From Haliotis rufescens (lineage: Eukaryota): a stretch of DNA of 64,000 bases. The stretch is from the NCBI RefSeq assembly GCF_023055435.1, contig NW_025964001.1, forward strand, positions 1,116,001 to 1,180,000, given 5' to 3'. The notes under the pieces were generated by a model. The model was not told the DNA's origin. It did not search any database and saw only the letters and a program-made list of their open reading frames with translations. How positions within the stretch are numbered: position 1 is the first letter of the stretch; every line of letters begins with the position of its first letter. A program made the position numbers and the translations under genes. This document shows positions 18,965-62,040 of the stretch, one piece after another.

Positions 18965-19595
18965 ATCTCAATAGAGCATACAGTCCTATCAGTAGAGAAT
19001 ACAGGTCCCAATAGTTCCATCAATAGAGAATACAGTCCTATCAGTAGAGAATACAGGTCCCAATAGTTCCACCAATCGAGCATACAAGCCTGTCAGTAGA
19101 GAATACAGGTCCCAATAGTTCCATCAATAGAGGATACAAGCCTGTCAGTAGCGAATACAGGTCCCAATAGTCCCATCAATAGAGGATACTGGCCTCAATA
19201 GTCACATCTTGGTGTATATATCATATATATCTGACCAGAACACCTTGGTGTCTGTTTCATGTCTAACCAGAACATCTTGTGTATATATCATATATCTGAC
19301 CAGAACATCTTGGTGTATATATCATCTCTTACCAGAACATCTTGTGTATATCATATATCTGACCAGAACATCTTGGTGTATATTTCATGTCTTACCAGAA
19401 CATCTTGTGTATATATCATGAATCTCACCAGAACATCTTGTATATGTGTCACATATCAGACCAGAACTTCTTGGTGTTTATATCACTTATCTGACCGAAA
19501 CATCTTGGTGTTTATATCCCATCTGACCAGAACACCTTTGTGTATATATATCACTTGTCTGACCAGAACATCTTGGTGTTTATATCGCATGTCTG
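18965..19595. repeat. Two degenerate minisatellites; the second (GACCAGAACATCTTGGTGTATAT..., ~36 bp) runs up to the ER acceptor
   Basis: Visible periodicity at 18965-19190 and 19205-19595. Confidence 0.85.
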
Positions 19596-19617
19596 ACTTT
19601 CTCTTGTTTTGTTGCAG

Positions 19618-19850
19618 GGAGTGCAGTGGCACCAAGTCTCCTAAGGAAGAAGGGCGGATGGTGTCGCCAGGTGCATGCATACCGGTGCAGGTGCAGCATG
19701 CACAGAGCATGTTGCCGGCCGGTGCACACCCACAGGCGCCGACGTCAACCACAACAGATGGGCTGGACCCAGAGAAAAAGTTTCTGCCACCCATTGATCC
19801 CCGCACCAACCTTGTTCCGGCACCACACCCTAAACAGGAGATGCCTTCAG
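19618..19850 (+). CDS. ESR: Estrogen receptor exon, A/B domain (ATG at 19658, MVSPGACIP...EMPS)
   Basis: Polypyrimidine tract plus TTGCAG acceptor; CAG|GTACAT donor; phase 1 joins the DBD exon in frame. Confidence 0.8.
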
Positions 19851-19854
19851 GTAC

Positions 19855-21865
19855 ATAGAACTGTAGGAATGCTGATTTGGTAGATTGCTTCAACAATGGA
19901 GGTAGACAGGTATAGACTGTAGACTGCTTCAACAGGTGGAGATAGACAGGTATTGACTGTAGACTGCTGCAACAATGGAGGTAGACAGGTATAGACTGTA
20001 GACTGCTTCAACGGGTGGAGATAGACAGGTATAGACTGTAGAGTGCTTCAACAATGGAGGTAGACAGGTATAGACTGTAGACTGCTTCAACAATGGGGGT
20101 AGACAGGTATAGACTGTAGATTGCTTCAACAATGGACGTAGACAGGTAAAGACTGTAGGCTGCTTCAACAATGGAGGTTGACAGGTATAGACTGTAGACT
20201 GCTTCAACAATGGAGGTAGACAGGTATAGACTGTAGATTGCTTCAACAATGGAGGTAGACAGGTATAGACTTAGGCTGCTTCAACAATGGAGGTAGACAG
20301 GTAAAGACTGTAGGCTGCTGCAACAATGGAGGTAGACAGGTAAAGACTGTAGACTGCTTCAACAATGGAGGTAGACAGGTATAGACTTAGGCTGCTTCAA
20401 CAATGGAGGTAGACAGGTAAAGACTGTAGACTGCTTCAACAATGGAGGTAGACAGGTATAGACTGTAGATTGCTTCAACAATGGAGGTAGACAGGTATAG
20501 ACTTAGGCTGCTTCAACAATGGAGGTAGACAGGTAAAGACTGTAGGCTGCTGCAACAATGGAGGTAGACAGATATAGACTGTACGCTGCTTCAACAATGG
20601 AGGTAGACAGATATAGACTGTAGATTGCTCAACAATGGAGGTAAACAGGTATAGACTGTAGGCTGCTTTAACAATGGAGGTAGACAGGTAAAGACTGTAG
20701 GCTGCTTCATCAATGGAAGTAGACAGGTATAGACTGTAGGCTGCTTCAACAATGGAGGTAGACAGGTATAGACTGTAGGCTGCTGTAACAATGGAGGTTG
20801 ACAGGTATAGACTGTAGACTGCTTCAACAATGGAGGTAGACAGGTATAGACTGTAGACTGCTGCAACAATGGAGGTAGACAGGTATAGACTGTAGGCTGC
20901 TGCAACAATGGAGGTTGACACATATAGACTGTAGACTGCTTCAACAATGGAGGTAGACAGATATAGACTGTAGACTGCTTCAACAATGGAGATAGACAGG
21001 TATAGACTGTAGGCTGCTGCAACAATGGAGGTTGACAGATATAGACTGTAGACTGCTTCAACAATGGAGGTAGACAGGTATAGACTGTAGACTGCTGCAA
21101 CAATGGAGGTTGACAGGTATAGACTGTAGGCTGCTGCAACAATGGAGGTTGACAGATATAGACTGTAGATTGCTCAACAATGGAGGTAAACAGGTATAGA
21201 CTGAAGGCTGCTTTAACAATGGAGGTAGACAGGTAAAGACTGTAGGCTGCTGCAACAATGGAGGTTGACAGGTATAGACTGTAGACTGCTTCAACAATGG
21301 AGGTAGACAGGTATAGACTGCAGATTGCTTCAACAATGGAGGTAGACAGGTATTGACTGTAGGCTGCTGCAACAATGGAAGTAGACAGGTATAGACTGTA
21401 GACTGCTTCAACAGGTGGAGATAGACAGGTATAGACTGTAGGCTGCTTCAACAATGGAGGTAGACAGGTATAGACTGTAGGCTGCTTCAACAATGGAGGT
21501 AGACAGGTAAAGACTGTAGGCTGCTGCAACAGGTGGAGGTAGACAGGTATAGACTGTAGGCTGCTTCAACAATAGAGGTTGACAGGTATAGACAGTAGAC
21601 TGCTTCAACAATGGAGGTACACAGGTATAGACTGTAGATTGCTTCAACAATGGAGGTAGACAGGTATAGACTGTAGATTGCTTCAACAATGGAGGTAGAC
21701 AGGTAAAGACTGTAGGCTGCTTCAACAATGGAGGTTGACAGATATAGACTGTAGACTGCTGCAACAATGGAGGTAGACAGGTAAAGACTGTAGACTGCTT
21801 CAACAATGGAGATAGACAGGTATAGACTGTAGATTGCTTCAACAATGGAGGTAGACAGGTATAGA
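19855..21865. repeat. Minisatellite, 39-bp unit, about 50 copies, starting at the ER A/B exon donor
   Basis: CAACAATGGAGGTAGACAGGTATAGACTGTAGACTGCTT. Confidence 0.95.
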
Positions 21866-22199
21866 ATGTGTCCCTGTTTTAAAGCTTATGAATTGAGAAG
21901 AACCTGGAGTGTCCATTTTAGTGATAGGTGCGATGATGAAACCAAGCACATGAGGTCTGGGGCACTGTGTTACGGCTCCTTGTGCCCATTCACTCAGGCC
22001 GAGTGGCAGGTCAAGGTTTTTGTGGAGTTTGTTCCGCTGACAGGGTCAACAAGTATGAATTGCCATTCTTAACTCAACACTTGTTTTGAAATAGATTCAA
22101 ATAATCAAGTATATCCGGAAGCTGGAGGCCTCATGAAATTTTTTTCTTATATTGTCACATATATTTTGATAGGGAATATAGGAGGATATTGCAGTGATA

Positions 22200-22715
22200 T
22201 ACTGGGTGATCAGACAGACGGTTATACCATGCATATGACATTGTCACATATAATGCTATCAAATAGATGGTTATACCATTCATGTGATATATTAGGAGAT
22301 CATTTGGATGGTTATACCATGCATGCAATATATTAGATGATCATATGGATTGTTATACCATGCGTGTGATATATTAGACGATCATTTGAACGGTTATGCC
22401 ACGTGTGAGATATATTTTTAGGCGATAATATGGACGGTTATACCATGCATGCGATATATATTTGATGGTCATATGGATGGTTATACCATGCATGTGATAT
22501 ATTAGGTGATCATATGGACAGTTACACCATGCAAGTGATGTATTAGGCAATCATATCAACCTTTATACCATGAGCATGATATATTAGGCGATCATATGGA
22601 TGGTTATACCTTGAGTGTGATATATCTTTAGGACGGTTATACCATGTGTGTTATATATCTTTTATTTTATCATATGGACGGTCATACCATGCGTGAGATA
22701 TATTAGGCAATCATT
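22200..22715. repeat. Degenerate ~42-bp minisatellite
   Basis: GATCATATGGATGGTTATACCATGCATGTGATATATTAG variants. Confidence 0.8.
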
Positions 22716-23069
22716 CGATGAGGTCAGCAAGATGGAGGTCATTCATGTGGGTGTCTGACTGTATGGAGATCACTACCAGGAAGAGTTTAGAATATATTAG
22801 AATACTTATTGCATATCAGCTTGCTCCTTCATGCCCTTCATTGATAATGCACTCGGTGTGCAGAAACAGGAAGTTGTACATCATAGTGAGGTTGGACAGC
22901 ATTAGTCATACGCTTTGAAAAGGAAGACACAATTTTGTCAATTTTTATGAGAGTATTTTGTTTTATATTTTTGAAGATTGACAGACATATTTTGGCTTGT
23001 GCATTTCTTGCAAGTCAGAACCTGGAATCTGTGAATTTAGTCTCAGAGATAAGGTGTCTTTTTATAAAT

Positions 23070-23266
23070 AAAAGGCGACTAATGAGATCGGGTGGTCAGG
23101 CTCGGTGACTTGGTTGATACATGTCATCGATTCCAATTGCTTGGATCGATGCTCATGATGTCAATCACTGGAGTGTCTGGTCCAGACTCAATTATTTTAC
23201 AGACCGCTGTCATATAGCTGGAATATTGTTGAGTGCGGCGTTAAACATCAAACAAACAAACAAACA
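23070..23266 (+). mobile_element. SINE-like repeat, family C, 5' truncated
   Basis: Ends GCTGGAATATTGTTGAGTGCGGCGTTAAAC(AAAC)n; 3' end resembles family A. Confidence 0.7.
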
Positions 23267-23325
23267 AAATGCAAAATCCAAAATCCAAATGGATCCCAGA
23301 ACAATGCTAATTCTAAGGGCTAATG

Positions 23326-23511
23326 CGGGGTGGTCGGGTAGCCTCGTGGTTAAAGTGTTCGCTCGCCACGCTGAAGACCCGGGTTCGATTCCTGACATTG
23401 GTACAATGTGTGAAGCCCATTTCTTGTGTTCCCCGCCATGATATTGCTGGAATATTGCTGAAAGCTGTCTAAAACCATACTCACTCACTCACTCACTCAC
23501 TCACTCACTCA
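23326..23511 (+). mobile_element. SINE family A copy
   Basis: GGTTCGATTCC B box; near identity to 627-790; long (ACTC)n tail. Confidence 0.85.
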
Positions 23512-23634
23512 GTTGGGAGCTGCATGTGCGAAAAGGTTGGCAATAAGAATCACATAGCTTCAGATGTTTTCAGTATATTGAAGAATGTTCTTAAAATTCC
23601 AGAAGTATGTATAATTCCACATGAACATGCACTT

Positions 23635-24220: not shown

Positions 24221-24431
24221 AAATTGATCCCGATTCGATGGGTGAAGGGTTACAGAAGTGGGCACCTCCGTGTTTGAGGGTAACATGATTTCAATGCAAA
24301 TATAATTTGTTTCACAAATTTTTTGGCTTAAAAATTCTTACCCGATTGATTAATTTGTATTCATCATGTATATTCTGGTATGTTCTTATGCTATTATTTA
24401 ATAATAAATTGTGTTTATTCTTGTGCTGCAG

Positions 24432-24545
24432 TGAGTGGGACATCCACCAAGTTGTGCCAGGTGTGTAACGACAACGCATCCGGCTTCCACTATGGTGTCT
24501 GGTCCTGCGAGGGCTGCAAGGCTTTTTTCAAACGAAGCATACAAG
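24432..24545 (+). CDS. ESR: Estrogen receptor exon, DBD zinc finger 1
   Basis: [31 protein letters not shown]; the P-box CEGCKA is ER-type (ERR has CEACKA); AG/GT boundaries. Confidence 0.97.
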
Positions 24546-24769: not shown

Positions 24770-25661
24770 TCACTGATACACAGGGGGGAGGCCTCCCTGA
24801 TACAGGCCTCACTGGTACGGAGGGTTGAGGCCTCCCTGATACAGGCCTCCCTGATACACAGGGATGTGGCGTCCCTGATACAGGCCTCACTGGTACGGAG
24901 GGTTGAGGCCTCCCTGATACAGGCCTCCCTGATACACAGGGATGTGGCGTCCCTGATACAGGCCTCACTNNNNNNNNNNNNNNNNNNNNNNNNNNNNNNN
25001 NNNNNNNNNNNNNNNNNNNNNNNNNNNNNNNNNNNNNNNNNNNNNNNNNNNNNNNNNNNNNNNNNNNNNNNNNNNNNNNNNNNNNNNNNNNNNNNNNNNG
25101 AGGCCTCCCTGATACAGACCCCCCTGATACAGGCCTCCCTGATACAGGCCTCACTGATACAGGCCTCACTGTTACGCAGGGTTGAGGCCTCCCTGATACA
25201 CATGGGGGAGGCATCCTTGATACAGACCCCCCTGATACACAGGGATGTGGCGTCCCTGATACAGGCCTCACTGGTACACAGGGTTGAGGCCTCCCTGATA
25301 CAGGCCTCCCTGATACACAGGTATGTGGCGTCCCTGATACAGGCCTCCTTGATACACAGGGATGTTGCCTCCCTGATACAGGCCTCCCTGATACACAGGG
25401 ATGTGGCCTCCCTGATAAAGGCCTCACTGGTACACAGGGATGTGGCCTCCCTGATACAGGCCTCACTGATACACAGGGATGAGGCCTCCCTGATACACAG
25501 GTATGTGGCCTCCCTGATACAGGCCTCACTGTTACGCAGGGTTGAGGCCTCACTGATACACAGGGATGAGGCCTCCCTGATACAGACCCCCCTGATACAC
25601 AGGGATGTGGCCTCCCTGATACACAGCGGGGAGGCCTCACTGGTATGCAGGGTTGAGGCCT
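24770..25661. repeat. Compound GGCCTCCCTGATACA(CA) satellite, gapped
   Basis: Mixed 15-25 bp units; adjacent to two N gaps. Confidence 0.9.
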
Positions 25662-25982: not shown

Positions 25983-26096
25983 GTCCCGTGGACTATGTAT
26001 GCCCAGCAACTAACAACTGTACAATTGACAAACATCGTCGGAAGAGCTGCCAGGCATGCCGACTTCGCAAATGTTATGAAGTTGGAATGAACAAAG
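25983..26096 (+). CDS. ESR: Estrogen receptor exon, DBD zinc finger 2
   Basis: Manual translation: [38 protein letters not shown]; TTGCAG|...AAAG|GTAT. Not in the ORF track. Confidence 0.97.
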
Positions 26097-26334
26097 GTAT
26101 AATCCCTTCCTTCTGAAAGCCTATTATCTCTATAGAAGAAGATTTTGAATTTTAACTTCAGGTTTTCAGTCTAGTGTTAGAAACATTAACATACAGCAAT
26201 TTGCATAACTTATTGAAATTGCTCAATTTGCACAACATCCCAGAAGCATAATGGTTAGGAGGACATTGGTCCCATGACCTGCTCAGAGATGGGCATCTGA
26301 CAGCTAGAGAAACTGCAGGGTTTGATACTCCGGG

Positions 26335-27298
26335 GTTGGGGCCTCCCTGATACACGGGGTTTAGGCCTCCCTGATACACGTGGGTTGAGGCCTCCCTGAT
26401 ACACGTGGGTTGGGGCCTCCCTGATACATTTTGGTTGAGGCCTCCCTGATACATGTGGGTTGAGGCATCCCTGATACACTTTGGTTGAGGCGTCCCTAAT
26501 ACAAGTGGGTTGAGGCCTCCCTGATACACGTGGGTTTAGGCCTCCCTGATACACGTGGGTTGACGCCTCCATGATACATGTGGGTTTAGGCCTCCCTGAT
26601 ACACGTGGGTTGAGGCCTCCCTGATACACGTGGGTTTAGGCCTCCCTGATACACGTGGGTTGAGGCCTCCCTGATACACATGGGTTTAGGCCTCCCTGAT
26701 ACACATGGGTTGGGGCTCCCTGATACACATGGATTGGGGCCTCCCTGATACACGTGGGTTGAGGCCTCCCTGATACACGTGGGTTTAGGCCTCCCTGATA
26801 CACATGGGTTTAGGCCTCCCTGATACACGTGGGTTGAGGCCTCCCTGATACACGTGGGTTGAGGCCTCCATGATACATGTGGGTTGAGGCCTCCCTGATA
26901 CACATGGGTTGAGGCATCCCTGATACATTTTGGTTGAGGCCTCCCTGATACACGTGGGTTGAGGCCTCCCTGATACACGTGGGTTGAGGCCTCCCTGATA
27001 CACGTGGGTTAAGACCGCCCTGATACACGTGGGTTTAGGCCTCCCTGATACACGTGGGTTTAGGCCTCCCTGATACACGTGGGTTTAGGCCTCCCTGATA
27101 CACCTGGGTTGAGGCCTCCCTGATACACATGGGTTTAGGGCTCCCTGATACACGTTGGTTTAGGCCTCCCTGATACACGTGGGTTTAGGCCTCCCTGATA
27201 CACGTGGGTTGAGGCCTCCATGATACATGTGGGTTGAGGCCTCCCTGATACACGTGGGTTGAGGCCTCCCTGATACACGTGGGTTGGGGCCTCCCTGA
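26335..27298. repeat. Minisatellite, 25-bp unit
   Basis: GGGTTGAGGCCTCCCTGATACACGT; same core as 24770-25661. Confidence 0.95.
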
Positions 27299-33075: not shown

Positions 33076-33188
33076 GGAGTCAGCGCAAAGAAAGGAAGAG
33101 CAGTGGAGGCAGCGCAGGGAAGGGGAAACGTTGTCGTGCTGACTCCACCGACGCCGCTATCAATTCCACAAGCGGAGGATCGGCCAAG
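33076..33188 (+). CDS. ESR: Estrogen receptor exon, hinge with basic NLS-like stretch
   Basis: GSQRKERKSSGGSAGKGKRCRADSTDAAINSTSGGSAK; CACAG acceptor, AAG|GTGAG donor; phases fit both neighbours. Confidence 0.9.
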
Positions 33189-33515: not shown

Positions 33516-33696
33516 TGCGCCAAGCGGTCTCGGTGTCACATGATTCTAGAGGCGCTGCAGAAAGCTGACCTCCCTGTGCTGGAGAGTTACCACAACCACA
33601 ACTTGCCACCCACTCGCATCCATCTACTGAACACACTCGTCAAGCTGGCGGACAGAGAACTAGTCTACTTGATAAACTGGGCCAAGCACGTCCCAG
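33516..33696 (+). CDS. ESR: Estrogen receptor exon, LBD H1-H3
   Basis: ...ILEALQKADLP...LLNTLVKLADRELVYLINWAKHVPG matches the ER LBD H3 signature. Confidence 0.95.
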
Positions 33697-33977
33697 GTAC
33701 GACACAGTCACACTGGACATATTGGGGATATAGCAGTCGCATCCGTTTGTTCTTTCTAGATGATCAACTTGTATGAGTTGTGAGGCTGTTCTGTATTATG
33801 TGTGACATGTTTCCTGATAAAGGAACACTGAAATAGTGAAGCGTCATGTTTTCTGCTGTCAACAGTCGTAGTCTATTTAAAAAGTACAGGGGTTGCAATA
33901 ACCTTAGCACTCCAATAGCTTTGTGGAATGGACCCTGGATGTTTTTTATTCTGGGCAGAATAATGTCGACACAATTT

Positions 33978-34128
33978 GTTGTGTGACTTGAGGACCATGT
34001 GTTGCTACATGTGTGTTGTGTGACTTGAGGACCATGTGTTGCTACATGTGTGTTGTGTGACTTGAGGACCATGTGTGTTGTGTGACTTGAGGACCATGTG
34101 TTACTATATGTGTGTTGTGTGACTTCAG
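33978..34128. repeat. ~37-bp minisatellite whose last copy forms the ER acceptor
   Basis: GTTGTGTGACTTGAGG... x4, then GTTGTGTGACTTCAG|G. Confidence 0.85.
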
Positions 34129-34270
34129 GCTACACAGATCTGTCGCTGAGTGACCAAGTGCACCTGATAGAGTGCTGCTGGATGGAGCTACTTCTCCTTA
34201 ACTGTGCATTTCGATCAATGGACCACGAGGGCAAGAGGCTAGTGTTTGCCCCGGACTTCCATTTAGATCG
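34129..34270 (+). CDS. ESR: Estrogen receptor exon, LBD H4-H5 and beta turn
   Basis: [48 protein letters not shown]; TTCAG acceptor, CG|GTCAGT donor. Confidence 0.95.
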
Positions 34271-34314: not shown

Positions 34315-35090
34315 GAATCACATAGTTAATGAGTGTTACCTGAATCAGTAGTTGAGTATTACCTGAATCACATAGTTAATGAGTGTTACCTGAATCAATG
34401 GTTGAGTATTACCTGAATCACAAAGTTAAGGAGTGTTACCTGAATCAATGGTTGAGTATTACCTGAATCACAAAGTTAAGGAGTGTTACCTGAATCAATG
34501 GTTGAGTATTACCTGAATCACAAAGTTAAGGAGTGTTACCTGAATCAATGGTTGAGTATTACCTGAATCACAAAGTTAATGAGTGTTACCTGAATCACAT
34601 AGTTGAGTATTACCTGAATCATCAAGTTAATGAGTGTTACCTGAATCACATAGTTGAATGTTACCTGAATCAATGGTTGAGTATTACCTAAATCAATGGT
34701 TGAGTATTACCTGAATCACATGGTTAATGAGTGTTACCTGAATCACATAGTTGAATGTTACCTGAATCAATGGTTGAGTATTACCTGAATCAATGGTTGA
34801 ATATTACCTGAATCACATAGTTAATGAGTGTTACCTGAATCAATAGTTGAGTATTACCTGAATCAATAGTTGAGTATTACCTGAATCAATAGTTGAGTAT
34901 TACCTGAATCACATAGTTGAATGTTACCTGAATCACAAAGTTAAGGAGTGTTACCTGAATCAATAGTTGAGTATTACCTGAATCAATAGTTGAGTATTAC
35001 CTGAATCAATAGTTGAGTATTACCTGAATCACATAGTTAATGAGTATTACATAAATCACATAGTTGAGTGTTACATGAATCAATAGTTGA
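34315..35090. repeat. 23-27 bp minisatellite filling most of an ER intron
   Basis: GTTGAGTATTACCTGAATCAATG / CACATAGTTAATGAGTGTTACCTGAAT. Confidence 0.9.
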
Positions 35091-35175
35091 TTATTTCCTG
35101 TCTCACATGGTAGATGAGTGTTATCTGTCTCCCATGGTTGAGAGGTGGAGGACTGACGCGATCTTTGTGTTGCAG

Positions 35176-35306
35176 CCACCACTGGAACATCACGGGGATG
35201 ACGGAGATCCTGGAGCAGGTGGCCGCGGTGTCTGAGCAGATGGTGCAATATAGTGTAGGCAAAGAGGAGCTGCTGCTACTCCAAGCTACAGTATTAGTCA
35301 ATGCAG
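35176..35306 (+). CDS. ESR: Estrogen receptor exon, LBD H6-H8
   Basis: RHHWNITGMTEILEQVAAVSEQMVQYSVGKEELLLLQATVLVNA; first of 17 repeated CAG|GT donors. Confidence 0.93.
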
Positions 35307-36215
35307 GTCAGTACATTGTTGCACAGCCTAGCTACAGTATAGCTACAGTATTAGTCAATGCAGGTCAGTACATTGTTGCACAGCCTAGCTACAGTATAGC
35401 TACAGTATTAGTCAATGCAGGTCAGTACATTGTTGTACAGCCTAGCTACAGTATAGCTACAGTATTAATCAATGCAGGTCAGTACATTGTTGCACAGCCT
35501 AGCTACAGTATAGCTACAGTATTAATCAATGCAGGTCAGTACATTGTTGCACAGCCTAGCTACAGTATAGCTACAGTATTAATCAATGCAGGTCAGTACA
35601 TTGTTGCACAGCCTAGCTACAGTATAGCTACAGTATTAATCAATGCAGGTCAGTACATTGTTGCACAGCCTAGCTACAGTATAGCTACAGTATTAGTCAA
35701 TGCAGGTCAGTACATTGTTGCACAGCCTAGCTACAGTATAGCTGCAGTATTAGTCAATGCAGGTCAGTACATTGTTGCACAGTTTAGCTACAGTATTATT
35801 CAATGCAGGTTGGTACATTGTTGCACAGCCTAGCTACAGTATAGCTACAGTATTATTCAATGCAGGTCAGTGCATTGATGCACAGCCTAGCTACAGTATA
35901 GCTACAGTATTAATCAATGCAGGTCAGTACATTGTTGCACAGCCTAGCTACAGTATAGCTACAGTATTAGTCAATGCAGGTCAGTACATTGTTGCACAGC
36001 CTAGCTACAGTATAGCTGCAGTATTAGTCAATGCAGGTCAGTACATTGTTGCACAGTTTAGCTACAGTATTATTCAATGCAGGTTGGTACATTGTTGCAC
36101 AGCCTAGCTACAGTATAGCTACAGTATTATTCAATGCAGGTCAGTGCATTGATGCACAGCCTAGCTACAGTATAGCTACAGTATTAGTCAATGCAGGTCA
36201 GTACACTGATACACA
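35285..36215 (+). repeat. 57-bp minisatellite spanning the ER exon-intron junction, 17 copies
   Basis: GCTACAGTATTAGTCAATGCAG|GTCAGTACATTGTTGCACAGCCTAGCTACAGTATA. Confidence 0.97.
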
Positions 36216-36680
36216 GCCACCTTGCAGTATTAATACCATGGTACTTAAAGTCAATTACCATCTGTACAATTTTCAACTAAATTAAAAAAAACCTTGTATA
36301 GTTTGTAGCACTACATGAACACACAATGATATCAAATAGAGGAGTCATTATTCTCACCCAACACATCTCTAGCACCCAAGTCCTGCAGGATACATTGCCA
36401 CCTAGCCACACTGACACTGAATAATATCTCTTAACGACACCCACGACAATTCATGAACGGCTCCTCTCAATGATTATTTCGTCATTATCAAAACAGGAAA
36501 TCTAGTCCTATCGTGCTCAAACAAGGAAATGAGTTAAAAGAAATTCCTAATTTAACCACAAACAGTATCAAATATCATTTGATCAAGGTTTCTCATTCAA
36601 AAAAAACATTTTAAATTTATTTTGTGTATTCTTTCTAATTTAATCAATGTATCAATATCAGATGTATTTTGTGTATTCAG

Positions 36681-36964
36681 AAGTGCGACGGCTGGCGAGT
36701 TTTAGCAAGATCCAAGAAATGCGTCAGCTAATTGTGGGGGCGTTGATGGAGGTTGTGCAGAAATACCACGCGGACGACGTCCAGCACTTCGCCTCCATGC
36801 TGCTGCTCCTAACCCACATCCGACAGGCGGGCGAGCGCGGCATCGCGTGCTTCCAGCAGCTGAAGCGAGAGGGCTGCGTTACATTCTGTGATCTGCTCAC
36901 CGAGATGCTCGAGGCCCACAATTCCACAGCGGAGAGAAAGCAAGAACTGGAACAACTTGACTGA
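36681..36964 (+). CDS. ESR: Estrogen receptor last coding exon, LBD H9-H12 (AF-2) and stop
   Basis: EVRRLASF...LLLLTHIRQAGERGIACFQQLKREGCVTFCDLLTEMLEAH...; TGA at 36962-36964. Confidence 0.95.
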
Positions 36965-48442: not shown

Positions 48443-48622
48443 TTATAAGTCATCCAAGTATTCCTTTTCCTGACTGGCTGGGTTTTCCACTGTGATCTTC
48501 CACTCCTGTGATGAGAGGTAATCCTCGCACTCAGCCAGAACCAGTCCTGTTTCCGACTTGTGACTGTCGACACACAAGCTGGAGGCTTGGTGGATGATAT
48601 GGTTCTTCTGTCGGTACCAGCG
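48443..48622 (-). CDS. GALNT: GALNT last coding exon, lectin gamma repeat and stop
   Basis: RWYRQKNHIIHQASSLCVDSHKSETGLVLAECEDYLSSQEWKITVENP...DDL*; QxW motifs. Confidence 0.9.
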   Translation of the reverse strand, partial: RWYRQKNHIIHQASSLCVDSHKSETGLVLAECEDYLSSQEWKITVENPASQEKEYLDDL

Positions 48623-49094: not shown

Positions 49095-49211
49095 CTGATT
49101 ATCGCCATAGTTACAGAACTGGACGACAAGGTAGGAGTGTGTCTGCTGGACGTCTGCTGTCAAACACATGCCGTTACTGACGATGACCCCCTTCCTACGC
49201 CATGACCACTC
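49095..49211 (-). CDS. GALNT: GALNT exon, lectin beta repeat
   Basis: EWSWRRKGVIVSNGMCLTADVQQTHSYLVVQFCNYGDNQ|GTGAGT. Confidence 0.9.
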
Positions 49212-50085: not shown

Positions 50086-50327
50086 TGTGGAATCGCAGTG
50101 TGGAAACAAGCATAGATGCTGATATTCTGGTATGTAGAGACAAGCACTGGAACTGAGGATCAATTCTGCCCAGGAATCCCCAGACAAGCAAAAGTACTAA
50201 GAACCTATTCTGCCTAAGGGCAGATCCAGCATTTTTTATTGGGAGGGGTCCAAAATATATAAATCCTCTCTGAGTCAATTTTAATGCCTACAACATACTA
50301 CATTTGGGTTTCAAAAGAGTTGGACAG

Positions 50328-50762
50328 CACAGGAAAGGGAAGCACAGGAATGGAAGCACAGGGAAGGGAAGCACAGGGAAGGGAAGCACAGGGAAGGGAA
50401 GCACAGGGAAGGGAAGCACAGGAAGGGAAGCACAGGAAGGGAAGCACAGGGAAGGGAAGCACAGGAAGGGAAGCACAGGGAAGGGAAGCACAGGAAGGGA
50501 AGCACAGGGAAGGGAAGCACAGGAAGGGAAGCACAGGAAGGGAAGCACAGGGAAGGGAAGCACAGGGAAGGGAAGCACAGGGAAGGGAAGCACAGGAAGG
50601 GAAGCACAGGGAAGGGAAGCACAGGGAAGGGCAGCACAGGGAAGGGAAGCACAGGTAAGGGAAGCACAGGGAAGGGAAGCACAGGGAAGGGAAGCACAGG
50701 GAAGGGAAGCACAGGAAGGGAAGCACAGGGAAGGGAAGCACAGGGAAGGGAAGCACAGGAAG
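50328..50762. repeat. 14/15-bp purine-rich minisatellite
   Basis: GGGAAGGGAAGCACA. Confidence 0.95.
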
Positions 50763-50793
50763 GCTGACATGGCTGACAGCGAGCTTTACTTGC

Positions 50794-50920
50794 CTGCGAG
50801 TCTTTTGATTCTACACACGGACGGAGCTTGATTAGGACTGGGAGTTGGCCAGGGACGATGTCCAGACACTGGTTGTCCTGGTAAATCTGGCCATAGGCAA
50901 ACTCATCGTTCACTGGCAAC
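50794..50920 (-). CDS. GALNT: GALNT exon, ricin-B lectin alpha repeat; ends at a GC donor
   Basis: LPVNDEFAYGQIYQDNQCLDIVPGQLPVLIKLRPCVESKDSQ|GCAAGT. Confidence 0.9.
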
Positions 50921-51559: not shown

Positions 51560-51643
51560 TTTAGTTCCGGGTACACGTTTTCTAGGTACCATCGGAATGT
51601 CTGACACTTGAGACGCTGTCGCAGGGCACGTCTTTCCTGCACA
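51560..51643 (-). CDS. GALNT: GALNT exon, end of catalytic domain
   Basis: [29 protein letters not shown]. Confidence 0.95.
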
Positions 51644-52454: not shown

Positions 52455-52625
52455 GTGAGTGAGTGAGTGAGTTTGGTTTTACTCCGCTTTTAGCAATATT
52501 CCAGCAATATCACGGCGGGGGACACCAGAAATGGGCTTAACACATTGTACCCATGTCGGGATTCGAACCCGGGTCTTCGGCGTGACGAGCGAACGCTTTA
52601 ACCACTAGGCTACCCGACTGCCCCT
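52455..52625 (-). mobile_element. SINE family A copy
   Basis: Reverse complement of the 627-790 element; TSD CTTTCAGTGA (52449-52458 / 52631-52640). Confidence 0.85.
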
Positions 52626-54096: not shown

Positions 54097-54189
54097 TCTC
54101 CGTAGGCCTGCATGCGTGCAGAAGGTCGAGCAGCGTAGTAAAATCGCTTGTAATCATCCATCCACACCTCTGCTGTCCTCCTTGTGTTC
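54097..54189 (-). CDS. GALNT: GALNT exon
   Basis: [30 protein letters not shown]; CTGCAG acceptor, GA|GTAAGT donor. Confidence 0.95.
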
Positions 54190-54219
54190 CTGCAGGGAGG
54201 ATATGAGGATATGAGAGCC

Positions 54220-54815
54220 GTGTCATGTGATAACAATGTCACGTGAGAAAATTATCATGTGAGAAGTGTCACATGAGAAAAGTGTCATGAGAACAGTGTC
54301 ACAAGAAAACATTGTCATGTGAGAACAGAAATGTGTCATGTGAGAACAGAAATGTAAGAACAACATAATGTTAGAACACTGTCATGTGAGAACAGCATAA
54401 TGTGCGAACACTGTCATGTGAGAACAGCAGAATGTGAGAACACTGTCATGTGAGAACAGCATGTGAGAAGTGTCATGTGAGAACAATATAATGTGAGAAA
54501 ACTGTCATGTGAGAAGAACAGCATAATGTGAGAACAATGTCATGTGAGAACAGCATAATGTGAGAACACTGTCATGTGAGAACAGCAGAATGTGAGAACA
54601 CTGTCATGTGAGAACAGCAGAATGTGAGAACACTGTCATGTGAGAACAGCATGTGAGAAGTGTCATGTGAGAACAATATAATGTGAGAAAACTGTCATGT
54701 GAGAAGAACAGCATAATGTGAGAACAATGTCATGTGAGAACAGCATAATGTGAGAACACTGTCATGTGAGAACAACATAATGTGAGAACACTGTTATGTG
54801 AGAACAATGTCTCAT
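54220..54815. repeat. Degenerate TGTGAGAACA satellite next to a GALNT acceptor
   Basis: TGTCATGTGAGAACAGCATAATGTGAGAACAC variants. Confidence 0.85.
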
Positions 54816-54904
54816 GAGAATATTATACATCAAGGAAAGATACTACTGTTTGCTTTAATACTGATTTGGATGAAATTATGTATTTGTCTTGTAGATGTAA
54901 GGTT

Positions 54905-57053
54905 TGTACATGTTGGAGCCTTACTTCATGTATGTGTTGGAGCCTTACTTCAAGTACGTGATGGAGCCTTACTTCATGTACATGTCGGAGCCTTACTTCA
55001 TGTATGTGTTGGAGCCTTACTTCATGTACATGTCGGAGCCTTACTTCATGTATGTGTTGGAGCCTTACTTCATGTACGTGCTGGAGCCTTACTTCATGTA
55101 CATGTCGGAGCCTTACTTCATGTATGTGTTGGAGCCTTACTTCATGTACGTGTCGGAGCCTTACTTCATGTATGTGTCGGAGCCTTACTTCATGTATGTG
55201 TTGGAGCCTTACTTCAAGTACGTGTTGGAGCCTTACTTCATGTACGTGTTGGAGCCTTACTTCATGTACGTGTTGGAGCCTTACTTCATGTACGTGTTGG
55301 AGCCTTACTTCATGTACGTGTCGGAGCCTTATTTCATGTACGTGTCGGAGCCTTACTTCATGTACGTGTCGGAGCCTTACTTCATGTACGTGTTGGAGCC
55401 TTACTTCATGTACGTGTTGGAGCCTTACTTCATGTACGTGTCGGAGCCTTACTTCATGTACGTGTCGGAGCCTTACTTCATGTACGTGTCGGAGCCTTAC
55501 TTCATGTACGTTTTGGAGCCTTACTTCATGTACGTGTCGGAGCCTTACTTCATGTACGAGTTGGAGCCTTACTTCATGTACGTGTTGGAGCCTTACTTCA
55601 TGTACGTGTTGGAGCCTTACTTCATGTACGTGTTGGAGCCTTACTTCATGTACGTGTTGGAGCCTTACTTCATGTACATGTTGGAGCCTTACTTCATGTA
55701 CGTGCTGGAGCCTTACTTCATGTACGTGTTGGAGCCTTACTTCATGTACGTGCTGGAGCCTTACTTCATGTACATGTCGGAGCCTTACTTCATGTACATG
55801 TCGGAGCCTTACTTCATGTACGTGTTGGAGCCTTACTTCATGCATGTGTTGGAGCCTTACTTCATGCATGTGTTGGAGCCTTACTTCATGTACGTGCTGG
55901 AGCCTTACTTCATGTATGTGTTGGAGCCTTACTTCATGTACGTGCTGGAGCCTTACTTCATGTACGTGTTGGAGCCTTACTTCATGTACGTGCTGGAGCC
56001 TTACTTCATGTACGTGTTGGAGCCTTACTTCATGTATGTGTCAGAGCCTTACTTCATGTACGTGTCGGAGCCTTACTTCATGTACGTGTCGGAGCCTTAC
56101 TTCATGTACGTGTTGGAGCCTTACTTCATGTACGTGTTGGAGCCTTACTTCATGTACGTGTTGGAGCCTTACTTCATGTACGTGTTGGAGCCTTACTTCA
56201 TGTACGTGTCGGAGCCTTACTTCATGTACGTGTCGGAGCCTTACTTCATGTACGTGTTGGAGCCTTACTTCATGTACGTGTTGGAGCCTTACTTCATGTA
56301 CGTGTTGGAGCCTTACTTCATGTACGTGTCGGAGCCTTACTTCATGTACGTGTCGGAGCCTTACTTCATGTACGTGTTGGAGCCTTACTTCATGTACGTG
56401 TTGGAGCCTTACTTCATGTACGTGTCGGAGCCTTACTTCATGTACGTGTCGGAGCCTTACTTCATGTACGTGTTGGAGCCTTACTTCATGTACGTGTTGG
56501 AGCCTTACTTCATGTACGTGTTGGAGCCTTACTTCAAGTACGTGTCGGAGCCTTACTTCATGTACGTGTCGGAGCCTTACTTCATGTACGTGTTGGAGCC
56601 TTACTTCATGTACGTGTTGGAGCCTTACTTCATGTACGTGTTGGAGCCTTACTTCAAGTACGTGTTGGAGCCTTACTTCAAGTACATGTCAGAGCCTTAC
56701 TTCATGTACGTGTCAGAGCCTTACTTCAAGTACGTGTTGGAGCCTTACTTCATGTACGTGTCGGAGCCTTACTTCATGTACGTGTTGGAGCCTTACTTCA
56801 TGTACGTGTCAGAGCCTTACTTCATGTACGTGTTGGAGCCTTACTTCATGTACGTGTCGGAGCCTTACTTCATGTACGTGTTGGAGCCTTCCTTCATGTA
56901 CGTGTCAGAGCCTTACTTCATGTACGTGTCAGAGCCTTACTTCAAGTACGTGTTGGAGCCTTACTTCATGTACGTGTCAGAGCCTTACTTCAAGTACGTG
57001 ATGGAGCCTTACTTCATGTACATGTTGGAGCCTTACTTCATGTACGTGTTGGA
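54905..57053 (-). repeat. 24-bp minisatellite spanning a GALNT exon-intron junction, about 89 copies
   Basis: Sense unit CTCCAACACGTACATGAA|GTAAGG. Confidence 0.97.
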
Positions 57054-57163
57054 GTTTCCCTGGGGGAAGGAGTACGGATGACGTTTGCGGAATACATGTC
57101 CGACTCGACTGCAGGGGATTATCTCAAGCTGTCCTCCACACATCCACACACGAAATGACAACT
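57037..57163 (-). CDS. GALNT: GALNT exon, catalytic flexible loop
   Basis: [43 protein letters not shown]; donor AA|GTAAGG is repeated in the downstream array. Confidence 0.96.
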
Positions 57164-57590
57164 CTGTAAATAATGAAGAAAAAAGTCACGGACAGCCTAG
57201 AAAGATCCACACACTGTACTTGATTTCCATGCAGCTTGGAGATTTTGTGTGTGTGTCTATCTACAGAAACTGCATAAACTCATTGCTATACTTTACATTA
57301 CAAACTTTTACAGAAAACATAAATTGACTTCAAAAGCAAGCTGGAGGACAGATTGTAGTCTAGGATCTCTTTGGTATGTTGTTACCAACTTTACTTATCG
57401 CTACCGGATCTTTACAACAAGCCAAGGGAAGTAACCCGGGCCTCCTTGTGTGTAAGCTCCGCCCCCTGATCAAAGACGTTCATGGTGTGAAGACATGTTA
57501 ATACTCTGCATTTGAGTGCAGACAAATATGAAGCGATGTTCACGACAAGATACAATCTGGGATGTGACTTTCTATCACAGGAATACTCAC

Positions 57591-57694
57591 CGAAGTTCTC
57601 TCCGCCCCAGATGTCCATCTTGGTGTCGTACTTGCCGAGACTGGTGAACCACTGCTTCCTGACACTGAAGATACCTCCGGCAATGATGGGGGTC
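57591..57694 (-). CDS. GALNT: GALNT exon with Gal/GalNAc-T WGGEN motif
   Basis: [34 protein letters not shown]. Confidence 0.96.
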
Positions 57695-58719
57695 CTGCAA
57701 TACATCCCTCAACTCACACCACACCATCATAATACTGTAAACCATGAAATGAATGTGAAAAATATAAGTGTCCCTTGCTCGAATTAATAAAGTGCTGCAT
57801 TTTCTAGCACATAATGTCATGTCAGGTTGACTGCAAACAGGCAGGAACAATGACACATATCACAAAGTTCCACATCAAGTCTGGCCACTTTGTATATTAA
57901 ACTTGATCAAGCAGTTTCCAGCAGGAAAATGCCATTGTTTCAATGTTGAAATTTAGTTCATGTAAAGTTGCCTTGTTGAAAAACATTGTATCAACCTTGT
58001 TTCAAACTTGGCCTTTTGATATATATCAACATTTTAAATTTTTTTTATTATTTTTGTCGTTAGAATCAATATATTTATAGAATCTAGACATTGTCGTCCC
58101 GCGTTGCAGTGTTTTGTCATTTTGCTGTATTTGTTATGATAAATGTCGATAATAATTTTATTCTTTAACCTTGGGTTAATTCATCATCATGGTTAAATGT
58201 AAGGTTAATAATATCTTGTCTCACGTAAAAAGAAGAGGTAAAAATAAATATATATATATACATGTTTTTGGTCTTTCTCTCTCCAGCTGGTGGATAGGGT
58301 GGGGAGATATCAGTGATGGGCCAAGGGAGATAATGCAGCTTTTATACAGTATAAGATACTTGCTATAAGGAGACCATTTGAGGGTTGAGCCAGGGAACTA
58401 AATTGTGCAAAAGATCATTGGCTTACAGGATGGTGCTCACAGATTTCTTCCTTAAGGTGACTGTACTTTGGGTTGCACCCACTTAACTGAGGGACACTTT
58501 GGCTTGAAGTTTTACATTCTCAGTGTAGCGGCCATAAAATTTCAGAGTTCCATGATGGGATTCGAACAACCGACCTTCTGATCTGAGGTCGGACGCCTTG
58601 TCCACATGACCAAAGAGGTCAACACCGTCAGCAAGCTGACAAGGTAAGGATGTCATCTGCGGGAAGGCTCCACACCCTGCTACATATTCCCATCAACAGA
58701 AGGCACGTCTCGAGCTGCA

Positions 58720-59050
58720 TAGTACTTAACTCCACATGACACCATCATAACACTTGCTTACACCATGCTAACTTACACAGCACTTAGCTCTACATGATAC
58801 CATCATAACACTTGCTTACACCATGCCCACTTACGCAGCACTTAGCTCTACATGACACCATCGTAACACTTGCTTACACCATGCTCACTTACGCAGCACT
58901 TAGCTCTACATGACACCATTATAACACTTGCTTACACCATGCCAACTTACACAGCACTTAGCTCTACATGACACCATCGTAACACTTGCTTACACCATGC
59001 TCACTTACGCAGCACTTAATTCCATATAACACTTGCCTACACCATGCTTA
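58720..59050. repeat. Minisatellite, 58-bp unit
   Basis: CACTTAGCTCTACATGACACCATCATAACACTTGCTTACACCATG... Confidence 0.9.
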
Positions 59051-59111
59051 ACTCAACACCACTTCATGGTCAGTATGCTTAAAGTAGCATACAGTAACCA
59101 TGGTAACTCAC

Positions 59112-59190
59112 TTCACCGGGTCAGTCTCCTTTTTCCCCACTGTTGACAAGGGCTGGTCCTCCCACGTGAAGTGCATGCTCCAGTCAAAGC
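59112..59190 (-). CDS. GALNT: GALNT exon
   Basis: GFDWSMHFTWEDQPLSTVGKKETDPVK; canonical sites, phases fit. Confidence 0.92.
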
Positions 59191-59214
59191 CTGAAAGTTC
59201 AACAGTAAAAAGTC

Positions 59215-59840
59215 TGGACCTATATTGACAGTACAACACTCTTGTCCTATATTGACAGTACAACACTCTCGACCTATATTGACAGTAAACACTATAGACC
59301 TATATTGACAGTAAACACTATAGACCTATATTGACAGTACAACACTCCGGTCCTATATTGACAGTACAACACTCTTGTCCTATATTGACAGTAAACACTA
59401 TAGATCTATATTGACAGTACAACAATATAGACCAATATTGACAGTACAACACTCTGGTCCTATATTGACAGTACAACACTCTAGTCCTATACTGACAGTA
59501 CAACACTCTAGTTCTATATTCACAGTACAACACCCGTGTCCTATATTCACAGTACAACCCTCTGGGTCTATATTGACAGTACAACACTCCAGTCCTATAT
59601 TGACAGTTCAACACTTTAGTCCAATATTGACAGTACAACACTCTAGTCCTATATTGACAGTACAACACTCTGGTCCTATATTGACAGTACAACACTCTAG
59701 TCCTATATTGAAAGTACAACACTCTAGTCCTATATTCACAGTACAACACCCGTGTCCTATATTGACAGTACAACCCTCTGGGTCTATATTGACAGTACAA
59801 CACTCCAGTCCTATATTGACAGTACAACACCCTTGTCCTA
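59215..59840. repeat. 27-bp minisatellite filling a GALNT intron
   Basis: CCTATATTGACAGTACAACACTCTAGT. Confidence 0.92.
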
Positions 59841-59859
59841 CGTGGATAGTATTGCTTAC

Positions 59860-59947
59860 CTCCCCTGAGGATGTCGGGTACAGCCTTGTACTGGAAGCTC
59901 TCGGTGTCGATCACGTCTATCACCGGACTAACTACACTGTACGGGGC
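59860..59947 (-). CDS. GALNT: GALNT exon
   Basis: APYSVVSPVIDVIDTESFQYKAVPDILRGG; canonical splice sites. Confidence 0.93.
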
Positions 59948-60299
59948 CTGAAACATCCATCCATGTGACAATAAGGACAAAAACATACCGTACTTGCCAT
60001 TTGAGTCATGTTACATACTAGTTTGAACAAGCAAAATAAATAAAAAATACACCACCAGACAGGCCGCCTGCCTGCCCGCACCATATTTTCAAAAGTCAAT
60101 TCCAATTCTTTTACTTTTTTAAGCCTCATAAAGATATAAGTTGTAGCAGGATCACGAGGGATATATGAATTTCATGCGCCCTGCGTTAGATTTTATACCA
60201 TGAGCTGGAGACTACAACAAATTCATCTTACCGACATGTTTAATATGACATTGTATAGGGATCAAAACAAATTCAAAATTGATAGAAACAGCTTTTGAC

Positions 60300-62037
60300 C
60301 CCCTGACCCTCTACATTGCCCCCTTGTCATGGCCCTGACCCCCAACATTGCCCCCCGGTCATGGTCTTGACCCCCAACATTGCCCCCTGGTCATGGCCCT
60401 GACCCCCTACATTGCCCCCTTGTCATGGCCCTGAACCCCTACATTGCCCCCTGGTCATGGCCCTGACCCCCTACATTGCCCCCTGGTCATGGCCCTGAAC
60501 CCCTACATTGCCCCCTTGTCATGGCCTTGACCCCCTACATTGCCCCCTGGTCATGGCCTTGACCCCCTACATTGCCCCCTGGTCATGGCCTTGACCCCCT
60601 ACATTGCCCCCTGGTTATGGCCCTGACCCTCTATATTGCCCCCTGGTCATGGCCCTGACCCCCAACATTGCCCCCTGGTCATGGCCCTGACCCCCTACAT
60701 TGCCCCCGATCATGGCCCTGACCCCCCAACATTGCCCCCTGGTCATGGCCCTGACCCCCCAACATTGCCCCCTTGTCATGGCCCTGACCCCCAACATTGC
60801 CCCCTGGTCATGGCCCTGACCCCCCAACATTGCCCCCTTGTCATGGCCCTGACCCCCAACATTGCCCCCTGGTCATGGCCCTGACCACCTTCATTGCCCC
60901 CTGGTTATGGCCCTGACCCTCTACATTGCCCCTTGGTCATGGCCCTGACCCTCAACATTGCCTCCTTGTCATGGCCGTGACCCCCTACATTGCCCCCGAT
61001 CATGGCCCTGACCCCCTACATTGCCCCTGGCTGTAGCCCTGACGCTCTACATTGCCCCTTGGTCATGGCCCTGACCCTCAACATTGCCTCCTTGTCATGG
61101 CCGTGACCCCCTATATTGTCCCCGGTCATGGCCCTGACCCCCAACATTGCCCCCAATCATTGCCCTGACCCCCTACATTGCCACCAATCATGGCCCTGAC
61201 ATTGCCACTGATCATGGCCCTGACCCCCCACATTGCCCCGATCATGGCCCTGACCCCCTACATTGCCCCCTGGCTGTAGTCCTGACCCTCTATATTGCCC
61301 CTTGTCATGTTCCTGACCCCCTATATTGTCCCCGATCATGGCCCTGACCCCCTACATTGCCCCAATCATGGCCCTGACCCCCAACATTGCCCCAATCATG
61401 GCCCTGACCCCCTACATTGCCCCCGATCATGGCCCTGACCCCCTACATTGCCCCAAATCATGGCCCTGAACCCCTACATTGCCCCCGATCATGGCCCTGA
61501 CCCCCTACATTGCCCCTTGTCATGTTCCTGACCCCCTATATTGTCCCCGGTCGTGGCCCTGACCCCCTATATTGCCCCCTGGTTGTGACCCTGACCCCCT
61601 ACATTGCCCCTTGTCATGTTCCTGACCCCCTATATTGTCCCTGGTCATGGCCCTGACCCCCTACATTGCCCCCTGGTTGTGGCCCTGACCCCTTACAATG
61701 CCCCCGGGCATGGCCCTGACCCCTGACATTGCCCCCTGGTCACGGCCCTGACCCCCTAAATTGTCCCCTGGTCATCGCCCTGACCCCGAACACTGCTCCC
61801 TGGTCGTGGCCCTGACCCCCTACATGCCCCCCGGTCATGGCCCTGACCCCCTACATTGCCCCTGGGTCATGGCCCTGACCCCCTTCATGCCCCCCGGTCA
61901 TGGCCCTGACCCCCTACATTGCCCCCCGGTCATGGCCCTGACCCCCTACATGCCCCCCGGTCGTGGCCCTGACCCCCTACATTGCCCCTGGGTCATGGCC
62001 CTGACCCCCTACATGTCCTCCGGTCATGGCCCTGACT
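60300..62037. repeat. ~32-bp C/G-run minisatellite beginning within a GALNT donor
   Basis: GGTCATGGCCCTGACCCCCTACATTGCCCCCT; the sense strand starts GTAAGTCAGGGCCATGACC. Confidence 0.95.
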
Positions 62038-62040
62038 TAC

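What the first reader, a model, noticed from the sequence alone, without database searches (positions are those of the whole stretch)
19205..62040. Minisatellites repeatedly nucleate at exon-intron boundaries in both genes
Seen: unrelated repeat units overlap or start within about 45 nt of splice sites at 19618, 19850, 34129, 34270, 35306, 50794, 54189, 57037, 59190/59860 and 62041. At least four contain part of the splice signal itself (34128, 35306, 57037, 62040). Most units are unique to their site, which suggests local origin rather than a dispersed satellite. Inference: a mutational process that duplicates 20-60 bp near exon edges and expands into the intron, with selection removing expansions into exons. 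I do not know of this being described as a system.
Basis: partly seen in the sequence, partly recalled or inferred. Interest (0 to 1): 0.7.

Follow-up and report, generated by a model that had tools for sequence, protein, structure and literature searches.

The report
Abalone minisatellites crowd splice donors
In this abalone, short tandem repeats made from local sequence start at the ends of exons two to five times more often than random placement predicts; the repeat type is already known from lancelets, humans and chickens and is likely harmless to splicing, and the excess likely comes from arrays growing and surviving next to exons rather than from more being born there.

Summary
Real, and a known kind. 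The window holds an abalone (Haliotis) estrogen receptor and a GALNT14-like gene. All 11 listed splice sites have an array edge within 45 nt (12 of 36 sites in all), but only two arrays copy a whole exon-intron junction. Such arrays are published as lancelet 'mirages', human junction VNTRs and chicken 'exon stuttering', and this scan found them before on other DNA, this genome included. New here is a test on 722 homology-defined introns of 71 genes: 52 donors (7%) are tandemly copied and 42 more have an array within 45 nt, 2.0 to 4.9 times chance under every null tried, also in six single-copy genes. Acceptors are near chance (0.7 to 1.8 times). Two-copy duplications show no clear excess; the donor bias appears at 15 or more copies (56 donor, 10 acceptor). 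Four RNA-like runs splice the receptor at the exon-adjacent copy. The mechanism is inferred, not shown.

The parts
19204..19586 (.). 32-bp minisatellite, 11.6 copies, ends 31 nt before the ER acceptor at 19618
19618..19850 (+). Estrogen receptor exon (first one inside the window)
19880..21869 (.). 39-bp minisatellite, 51 copies, starts 29 nt after the donor
24432..24545 (+). ER exon, first zinc finger; no array within 200 nt
25983..26096 (+). ER exon, second zinc finger; one repeat family lies in both flanking introns, more than 230 nt away
33076..33188 (+). ER hinge exon; no array nearby
33516..33696 (+). ER ligand-binding-domain exon; no array within 280 nt
33977..34129 (.). 37/25-bp minisatellite, about 4.5 copies; the last copy carries the used acceptor
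34129..34270 (+). ER ligand-binding-domain exon
34315..35142 (.). 23/50-bp minisatellite filling 828 of 905 nt of the intron, 44 nt from the donor and 33 nt from the acceptor
35176..35306 (+). ER ligand-binding-domain exon
35284..36218 (+). True mirage: 57-bp unit holding 23 nt of exon plus the donor, 17 donor copies; the first three units read in frame without a stop; the listed joint uses the first copy in 4 of 4 runs
36681..36961 (+). Last ER coding exon, 100% identical to a protein named for Haliotis rufescens
48446..48622 (-). Last coding exon of GALNT14-like gene
49095..49211 (-). GALNT exon; nearest array 150 nt from the acceptor
50326..50763 (.). 15-bp minisatellite, 30 copies, starts 30 nt after the GC donor at 50794
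50794..50920 (-). GALNT exon with a GC donor
51560..51643 (-). GALNT exon; no array nearby
54097..54189 (-). GALNT exon
54212..54820 (.). 16/32-bp minisatellite ending 22 nt before the acceptor at 54189
54905..57054 (-). True mirage: 24-bp unit holding 18 nt of exon plus the donor, 89 donor copies; read-through past the first donor meets TAA at once
57037..57163 (-). GALNT catalytic-domain exon
57591..57694 (-). GALNT exon; no array nearby
59112..59190 (-). GALNT exon; a 58-bp array starts 93 nt after its donor
59219..59840 (.). 27-bp minisatellite, 23 copies, filling 622 of 669 nt of the intron (19 nt from donor, 28 nt from acceptor)
59860..59947 (-). GALNT exon
60301..62036 (.). 32-bp minisatellite, about 55 copies, whose first unit starts at donor position +5
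62041..62162 (-). GALNT exon
63303..63368 (-). GALNT exon (four more lie beyond the window)

Best explanation
Pieces of 15-130 bases of local sequence are copied head to tail into introns, and in this abalone such arrays start at exon ends (5' splice sites) two to five times more often than random placement predicts, likely because the conserved exon anchors the recombination that expands an array and shields it from intron turnover, while selection likely removes arrays that run into exons or stack decoys in front of an acceptor. Steps: (1) ordinary tandem duplications arise anywhere (inferred; two-copy duplications show no clear edge excess); (2) those beside an exon expand further and persist (shown as a pattern; cause inferred); (3) an array never reaches more than one unit into the exon (shown); (4) donor copies are tolerated because the first donor is used (shown for the receptor in contigs; scanning mechanism taken from human F7); (5) long acceptor-side arrays are missing (shown), probably purged because upstream decoys would be met first (inferred). 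The arrays are most likely by-products without a function.
For: Enrichment in 722 trusted of 935 introns, 71 genes, 255 arrays: donor-spanning 52 against 18.2 (within-intron null), 10.6 (within-gene) and 26.5 (harshest: degenerate and dispersed repeats removed, within-intron); gene-bootstrap ratios 2.86 [2.27-3.49], 4.92 [3.81-6.06], 1.96 [1.53-2.38]; near-donor 2.0-3.8 times. Six single-copy enzyme genes: 20 of 37 arrays at an edge against 9.8 (p=5e-5). Edge density peaks at 1.8 per kb from -30 to +10 of the donor and falls to 0.1-0.2 by 150-300 nt; 1012 microsatellites are nearly flat. Donor excess rises with copy number, x3.9 to x15; donor:acceptor is 38:29 below 15 copies and 56:10 above, p=0.0005. 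Exon-anchored exchange does occur in this genome: two ABCC paralogues 54-67% identical in other exons share a 99%-identical exon and the 80-bp donor array beside it; intron similarity between paralogues decays from the exon over 50-100 nt. Genes within 3 Mb of a scaffold end hold 63 arrays in 114 introns against 111 in 387 further in, as for recombination-driven human minisatellites (PMC2599865, passages). Hemizygosity is widespread in molluscs and may suppress recombination locally (10.1101/2020.09.15.298695, passages). First-donor scanning is shown for human F7 (PMC1557585, passages); donors with arrays score slightly higher (16.9 against 15.7, p=0.035).
Against: No polarity of repeat variation towards the exon (33 donor-spanning, 33 near-donor arrays), which a one-sided recombination source might leave. 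No effect of flanking exon length. The rank correlation of array cover with distance to scaffold end is not significant (rho -0.16, p=0.26, 50 genes). Stop codons, a coding edge without a splice site, show only 2 of 62 against 89 of 722 donors (p=0.036), which fits a donor-specific process better than a generic exon anchor. The exchange seen is between paralogues, not alleles; allelic exchange and copy-number polymorphism were not measured. Acceptor copies keep their AG as often as donor copies keep GT (0.90 and 0.93), so purging is inferred from absence only. Near-acceptor arrays that do not copy the AG also lack long members (6 against 31 near donors), which decoy acceptors explain less well. 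An earlier unreviewed note on 728 other introns of this genome reports frequencies near chance (e1-9879696).
Confidence: 0.5

Rival explanations
1. Donor-specific, transcription- or splicing-linked mutation: something at the 5' splice site (polymerase pausing, U1 binding, R-loops, a nucleosome edge) makes or expands duplications in the direction of transcription. This is closest to the first reader's idea.
For: Excess is donor-sided (52:19 spanning, p=1e-4; 42:20 near, p=0.007) and sharply centred on the junction; stop codons are lower than donors; the most homogeneous arrays are as enriched (x9.7) as others and the most diverged less (x5.7); two-copy duplications of period 25 or more show x3.5 at donors (5 against 10 far).
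Against: Donor and acceptor are about equal below 15 copies (38:29); all two-copy duplications x0.8; no G skew special to edge arrays; CpG-poor genes, the likely methylated, broadly expressed ones (recalled for molluscs), have fewer donor arrays, not more (rho +0.31), although six housekeeping genes have more than the family genes (15 of 78 against 66 of 623, p=0.037).
Confidence: 0.22
2. Deletion shadow and erosion only: arrays arise and grow equally everywhere, but intron interiors are deleted and replaced, and deletions pull surviving arrays up to the splice signals.
For: Edges of 974 dispersed-repeat segments are also 2-3 times denser near exons; introns with only edge arrays have less non-array sequence (median 443 nt) than array-free ones (817); array ends are not unit-exact; paralogue introns lose similarity away from exons.
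Against: Minisatellite edges rise about 12 times at donors against 2-3 times for dispersed repeats, and over a narrower range; edge arrays are not more diverged than interior ones (span +1.8 +/- 1.2 points after period correction); erosion cannot put exon sequence into a unit; shielding should be symmetric.
Confidence: 0.18
3. No real excess: short introns plus high repeat density make junction overlap likely, and my nulls understate it.
For: Donor and acceptor pooled under the harshest null give only 71 against 53 spanning arrays; acceptors are at chance there; the two spanning arrays of the window are not above chance; e1-9879696 reports near-chance frequencies.
Against: Donor ratios exclude 1 under every null; the donor-acceptor asymmetry needs no length model; in 133 introns with 800 nt or more of unique sequence all four edge classes exceed expectation (5, 7, 3, 5 against 1.8-1.9); uniform birth per base predicts longer, not shorter, host introns.
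Confidence: 0.06
4. The arrays are selected: spare donors, splicing enhancers or regulated in-frame extensions.
For: 93% of donor copies keep GT and 74% score as well as the used site; the receptor's 57-bp unit is in frame and stop-free for at least three copies.
Against: Unit length modulo 3 is flat (18:16:18 for donors); 13 of 52 neighbouring donor copies give a stop-free in-frame insert; units are unrelated; the listed joints use the first copy in 4 of 4 runs.
Confidence: 0.04

Closest known systems
Lancelet 'mirage' minisatellites (Adh3, globins BflGb6 and BflGb9, troponin C, PGBD5); PMC3087553 and PMC3902484, passages read; the original Adh3 paper (PMID 12087171) was not held
   Same: Tandem copies of an exon-intron boundary, units of tens to about 150 bases, either boundary, cryptic GT/AG kept, normal splicing, local origin, mechanism unclear.
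   Different: Those are single-locus reports in a cephalochordate with no test against chance in the passages I read; here a gastropod, 71 genes, a measured donor bias, and as many arrays that abut a site without spanning it.
Human junction-spanning VNTRs: F7 intron 7 (37 bp), CBS intron 13, interferon-induced 6-16 gene, LMNB2, PDGF; PMC1557585, passages read
   Same: First monomer spans the exon-intron boundary, donor reiterated, most upstream donor used.
   Different: A handful of loci in humans against 52 of 722 sampled donors here; some human cases use the second and third copy, which I could not test with raw reads.
Chicken dot-chromosome 'sequence/exon stuttering'; PMC12954441, passages and the second part of section 7 read
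   Same: Strictly local imperfect tandem expansions in introns, often starting from an exon edge with its splice site (190 of 5,572 dot-chromosome introns).
   Different: There confined to GC-rich microchromosomes and said to be unreported in other vertebrates; here on many scaffolds in introns of about 40% GC, 71 spanning arrays in 722 introns under a different screen, with a donor bias.
Recombination-driven human minisatellites near chromosome ends; PMC2599865, passages read
   Same: Unit sizes, internal variation, higher density towards scaffold ends (weak here).
   Different: Polarity towards a flanking hotspot is not seen here; germline exchange was not measured.

Membership tests
Mirage minisatellite | Unit spans an exon-intron boundary and is repeated in tandem | tested here: met
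   Met by 35284-36218 and 54905-57054 and by 71 of 255 arrays in the sample.
Mirage minisatellite | The same feature, for the other eight edge arrays of the window | tested here: not met
   They end -1 to 44 nt from a site without copying exon sequence; they are junction-adjacent minisatellites, not mirages.
Mirage minisatellite | Copies keep cryptic GT or AG | tested here: met
   GT intact in 93% of donor copies, AG in 90% of acceptor copies; 17 and 89 donor copies in the window.
Mirage minisatellite | Regular splicing at the exon-adjacent site | tested here: met
   Receptor: listed joints use the first donor copy in contigs of 4 of 4 runs; contigs drop rare forms and 85 weaker joints were not shown.
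Mirage minisatellite | Copy-number polymorphism or instability between haplotypes | tested here: inconclusive
   No second haplotype read; paralogue pairs differ in copy number (47 and 25; 29 and 301); one run shows small indels in the 33977 array.
Mirage minisatellite | Concerted evolution with terminal units more diverged | tested here: met
   Donor-spanning arrays: first 0.080, middle 0.056, last 0.083 divergence from the majority unit (33 arrays); descriptive, ends against middle not tested.
Chicken exon stuttering | Local origin from an exon edge, imperfect tandem copies | tested here: met
Chicken exon stuttering | Confined to GC-rich dot chromosomes | tested here: not met
   Spanning arrays in 37 of 71 genes on many scaffolds, intron GC about 0.40.
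Recombination-driven (hotspot-flanked) minisatellite | Polar variation towards the flanking recombination source | tested here: not met
   No significant difference between 5' and 3' thirds in any class.
Recombination-driven (hotspot-flanked) minisatellite | Interallelic germline exchange | not testable with these tools
   Needs sperm typing or pedigree long reads.

The most novel reading that the evidence does not exclude
Abalone has a directional, genome-wide process that amplifies whatever short duplication sits at a 5' splice site, so that about one donor in eight seeds an array, one in fourteen is itself copied, and the 5' part of many introns is rebuilt from exon-edge sequence while the old intron is eroded. 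It would be a measurable engine of intron turnover tied to splicing or transcription, shared with lancelets and chicken dot chromosomes.
Probability: 0.25. Interest if true: 0.7.

Novelty: new member of a known kind. Interest (0 to 1): 0.42.

Why it matters
The repeat type is known, but its cause is open in the three papers I read on it. A genome in which 7% of sampled donors are tandemly copied, and the bias depends on side and copy number, turns single-locus curiosities into a statistical test of mechanism (birth, expansion or survival) and of how the spliceosome ignores dozens of perfect decoy donors. It also warns annotators and marker designers that exon-edge copies fill introns in this farmed species.

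Tried and rejected
First guess of amphioxus (notes 1, 2) was wrong; one search named an abalone protein. The original mirage paper was not held. The upstream receptor exon (protein residues 1-461) was not found in the window or 20 kb before it. 213 of 935 introns were dropped before counting because a flank aligned poorly or the position did not recur; arrays under 10 bp period, 2.5 copies or 50 nt were not counted as minisatellites. Null results: polarity, unit length modulo 3 and stops, strand skew, microhomology from array overhang, exon length, faster or slower change of the functional copy. Sharing of arrays between paralogues was first read as long life and rejected: the flanking exons are 94-99% identical, so it reflects recent conversion. 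My dispersed-repeat scan was clipped to introns, so it cannot say whether such repeats span junctions (my note 4 overstated this). In the stop-codon control 14 multi-exon ends were examined and 2 dropped (MTR, MUT) because the apparent stop lies in an intron by my reading; the 50 single-exon stops are ORF ends without RNA support. Weak signals from many tests (donor strength p=0.035, exon GC p=0.01-0.02, CpG p=0.016, single-copy against family p=0.037) are uncorrected. No protein folding or complex job was run; none bears on the question.
Full report
What the window is. The last coding exon of the plus-strand gene is 100% identical to a protein named for Haliotis rufescens, and the other hits are mollusc estrogen receptors. 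The minus-strand gene is 98% identical in its catalytic exon to a Haliotis cracherodii GALNT14-like protein. The window lies 1.1 Mb from the start of a 67.9-Mb scaffold, and 38% of it is masked by Tandem Repeats Finder, N stretches included. Four stretches of N (906 nt) lie inside introns or upstream and were left as they are.

The observation. Contigs of 4 of 4 RNA-like runs give all seven receptor introns, and my spliced aligner returns the same seven. The GALNT exons rest on homology alone. Two arrays copy a whole donor with exon sequence: 57 bp at 35284-36218 (17 donor copies) and 24 bp at 54905-57054 (89 copies). In the window 10 of 27 intronic arrays sit at an edge against 2.5 expected; under a within-intron shuffle of the two genes it is 12 of 25 against 7.4, and spanning arrays alone are not above chance. 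These figures are post hoc.

A fair test elsewhere in the genome. I located SLC6, ABCC and GALNT family genes and six single-copy enzyme genes by their E. coli homologues, took their DNA, and built gene models by profile or single-protein spliced alignment. Exon lengths and phases recur across paralogues. Distant single proteins gave 49 of 49 and 35 of 35 trusted junctions equal to the profile models on 12 genes; this is agreement between my own models, not independent truth. Of 935 introns in 71 genes, 722 passed the filters; they hold 255 minisatellites: 52 span a donor, 19 an acceptor, 42 start within 45 nt of a donor, 20 end within 45 nt of an acceptor, 122 lie further in. The genes were chosen by family, not by repeats, but they are not a random sample of the genome.

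Result. Donor-spanning arrays exceed expectation 2.86 times [gene bootstrap 2.27-3.49] when shuffled within their own intron, 4.92 times [3.81-6.06] within their gene, and 1.96 times [1.53-2.38] when degenerate and dispersed repeats are also removed from the intron length; near-donor arrays 2.0-3.8 times. Acceptor-spanning arrays give 1.05, 1.80 and 0.72. Without the window genes the donor count is 50 against 16.4, 9.6 and 24.3. Single-copy genes show the same (20 of 37 at an edge against 9.8), and counting one array per unit family leaves 49 donor-spanning of 225. Edge density peaks across the donor and is back to background by 150-300 nt; microsatellites are nearly flat; dispersed repeats rise only 2-3 times. 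Pooling both sides under the harshest null leaves 71 against 53, which may be why an earlier unreviewed note on this genome (e1-9879696) found little excess; I could not see its method.

Anatomy. Units are local: 205 of 255 have no relative in the sample, and none of 30 window units hits 1.99 Mb of other loci. No spanning array reaches more than one unit into its exon (0 of 71). Copies keep GT or AG in over 90% of cases, with no bias in frame or stops. Two-copy duplications are not enriched at edges (x0.8 and x0.4, n=80; x3.5 and x2.1 for the 27 with longer units), while the donor excess climbs from x3.9 to x15 with copy number. Below 15 copies donors and acceptors are similar (38:29), above it they are not (56:10). 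Introns with only edge arrays keep less other sequence than array-free introns (443 against 817 nt).

Mechanism. The pattern fits growth and survival beside exons better than a birth hotspot. I favour exon-anchored recombination with shielding from intron turnover, trimmed by selection on the acceptor side (0.5). For it: conversion tracts between paralogues run from a conserved exon into the intron and carry arrays along; intron similarity decays from exons over 50-100 nt; arrays are about twice as dense near scaffold ends; first-donor scanning makes donor copies harmless in human F7 (PMC1557585). Against it: no polarity, no exon-length effect, a non-significant end-distance correlation, and few arrays at stop codons (2 of 62). 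A donor-specific transcription- or splicing-linked process (0.22) and pure deletion shadow (0.18) remain open. No allelic data were available, so none of the three is shown.

What is known. Tandem copies of exon-intron boundaries are named 'mirages' in lancelets (PMC3087553, passages; PMC3902484, passages; the Adh3 paper itself not seen). Human cases are listed in PMC1557585 (passages), and chicken 'exon stuttering' in PMC12954441 (passages and part of section 7). An abalone intronic minisatellite is mentioned without reference to splice sites in PMC6905558 (passages). I also read passages of 10.1101/2020.09.15.298695 and PMC2599865; no supplements were opened. Ten searches showed no test of enrichment or donor bias in a mollusc; the library lacks most subscription journals, so this is weak. 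This scan has 68 notes on the theme, 25 in this genome; the F7 and chicken papers came to me from them.

Verdict. The element is a new member of a known kind; the added value is the measured, one-sided, copy-number-dependent excess. Interest 0.42.

Noticed in passing
window 35284-36218: The 57-bp unit is 19 codons, in frame and stop-free for at least three copies, so use of a later donor would insert a repeat into the receptor's ligand-binding domain; not seen among the joints listed.
   Followed up: partly
window 19000-19603: Contigs of runs X1 and X5 (one study) cover the repeats just upstream of the 19618 acceptor at about a tenth of exon depth, X2 and X9 do not; perhaps an alternative first exon or unspliced RNA.
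   Followed up: no
window 24770-25661 and 26333-27298: One repeat family lies in both introns flanking the second zinc-finger exon, an exception to site-unique units; two N stretches interrupt it.
   Followed up: no
window 50794: GC-AG intron in the GALNT14-like gene; 1 of 418 trusted introns in the first sample had a GC donor.
   Followed up: no
window 23069-23520 (similar text at about 614-781 and 52471-52605): A very abundant dispersed repeat draws contig depth of 50,000-200,000 in all four runs; SINE-like by appearance, not identified.
   Followed up: no
window 62189-62218: A 13-bp, 2.3-copy repeat 27 nt before the acceptor at 62162, similar to the unit at 54212-54820; below my size threshold.
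   Followed up: no
L065-L067 and L142-L144; L053-L056, L068-L071, L072-L074, L078-L080: ABCC paralogues 54-67% identical in most exons share a nucleotide-binding-domain exon at 99% together with its flanking array: exon-anchored gene conversion between paralogues.
   Followed up: partly
L045-L048, ABCC intron before profile position 981: A 4.7-kb intron consists, but for 138 nt, of 73 copies of a 64-bp unit of which 63 nt are exon sequence.
   Followed up: no
L126-L130, methylmalonyl-CoA mutase: An 11.4-kb intron holds 519 copies of a 21-bp unit starting 6 nt after the donor; the same unit family occurs in another intron of the gene.
   Followed up: no
L214 and L135-L137: Two arrays span a stop codon in the way mirages span a donor (93 bp x 3.8; 49 bp x 9.8).
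   Followed up: partly
G000 C594, C35, C90, C223: A large group of intronless or two-exon GALNT-like genes beside the multi-exon family.
   Followed up: no
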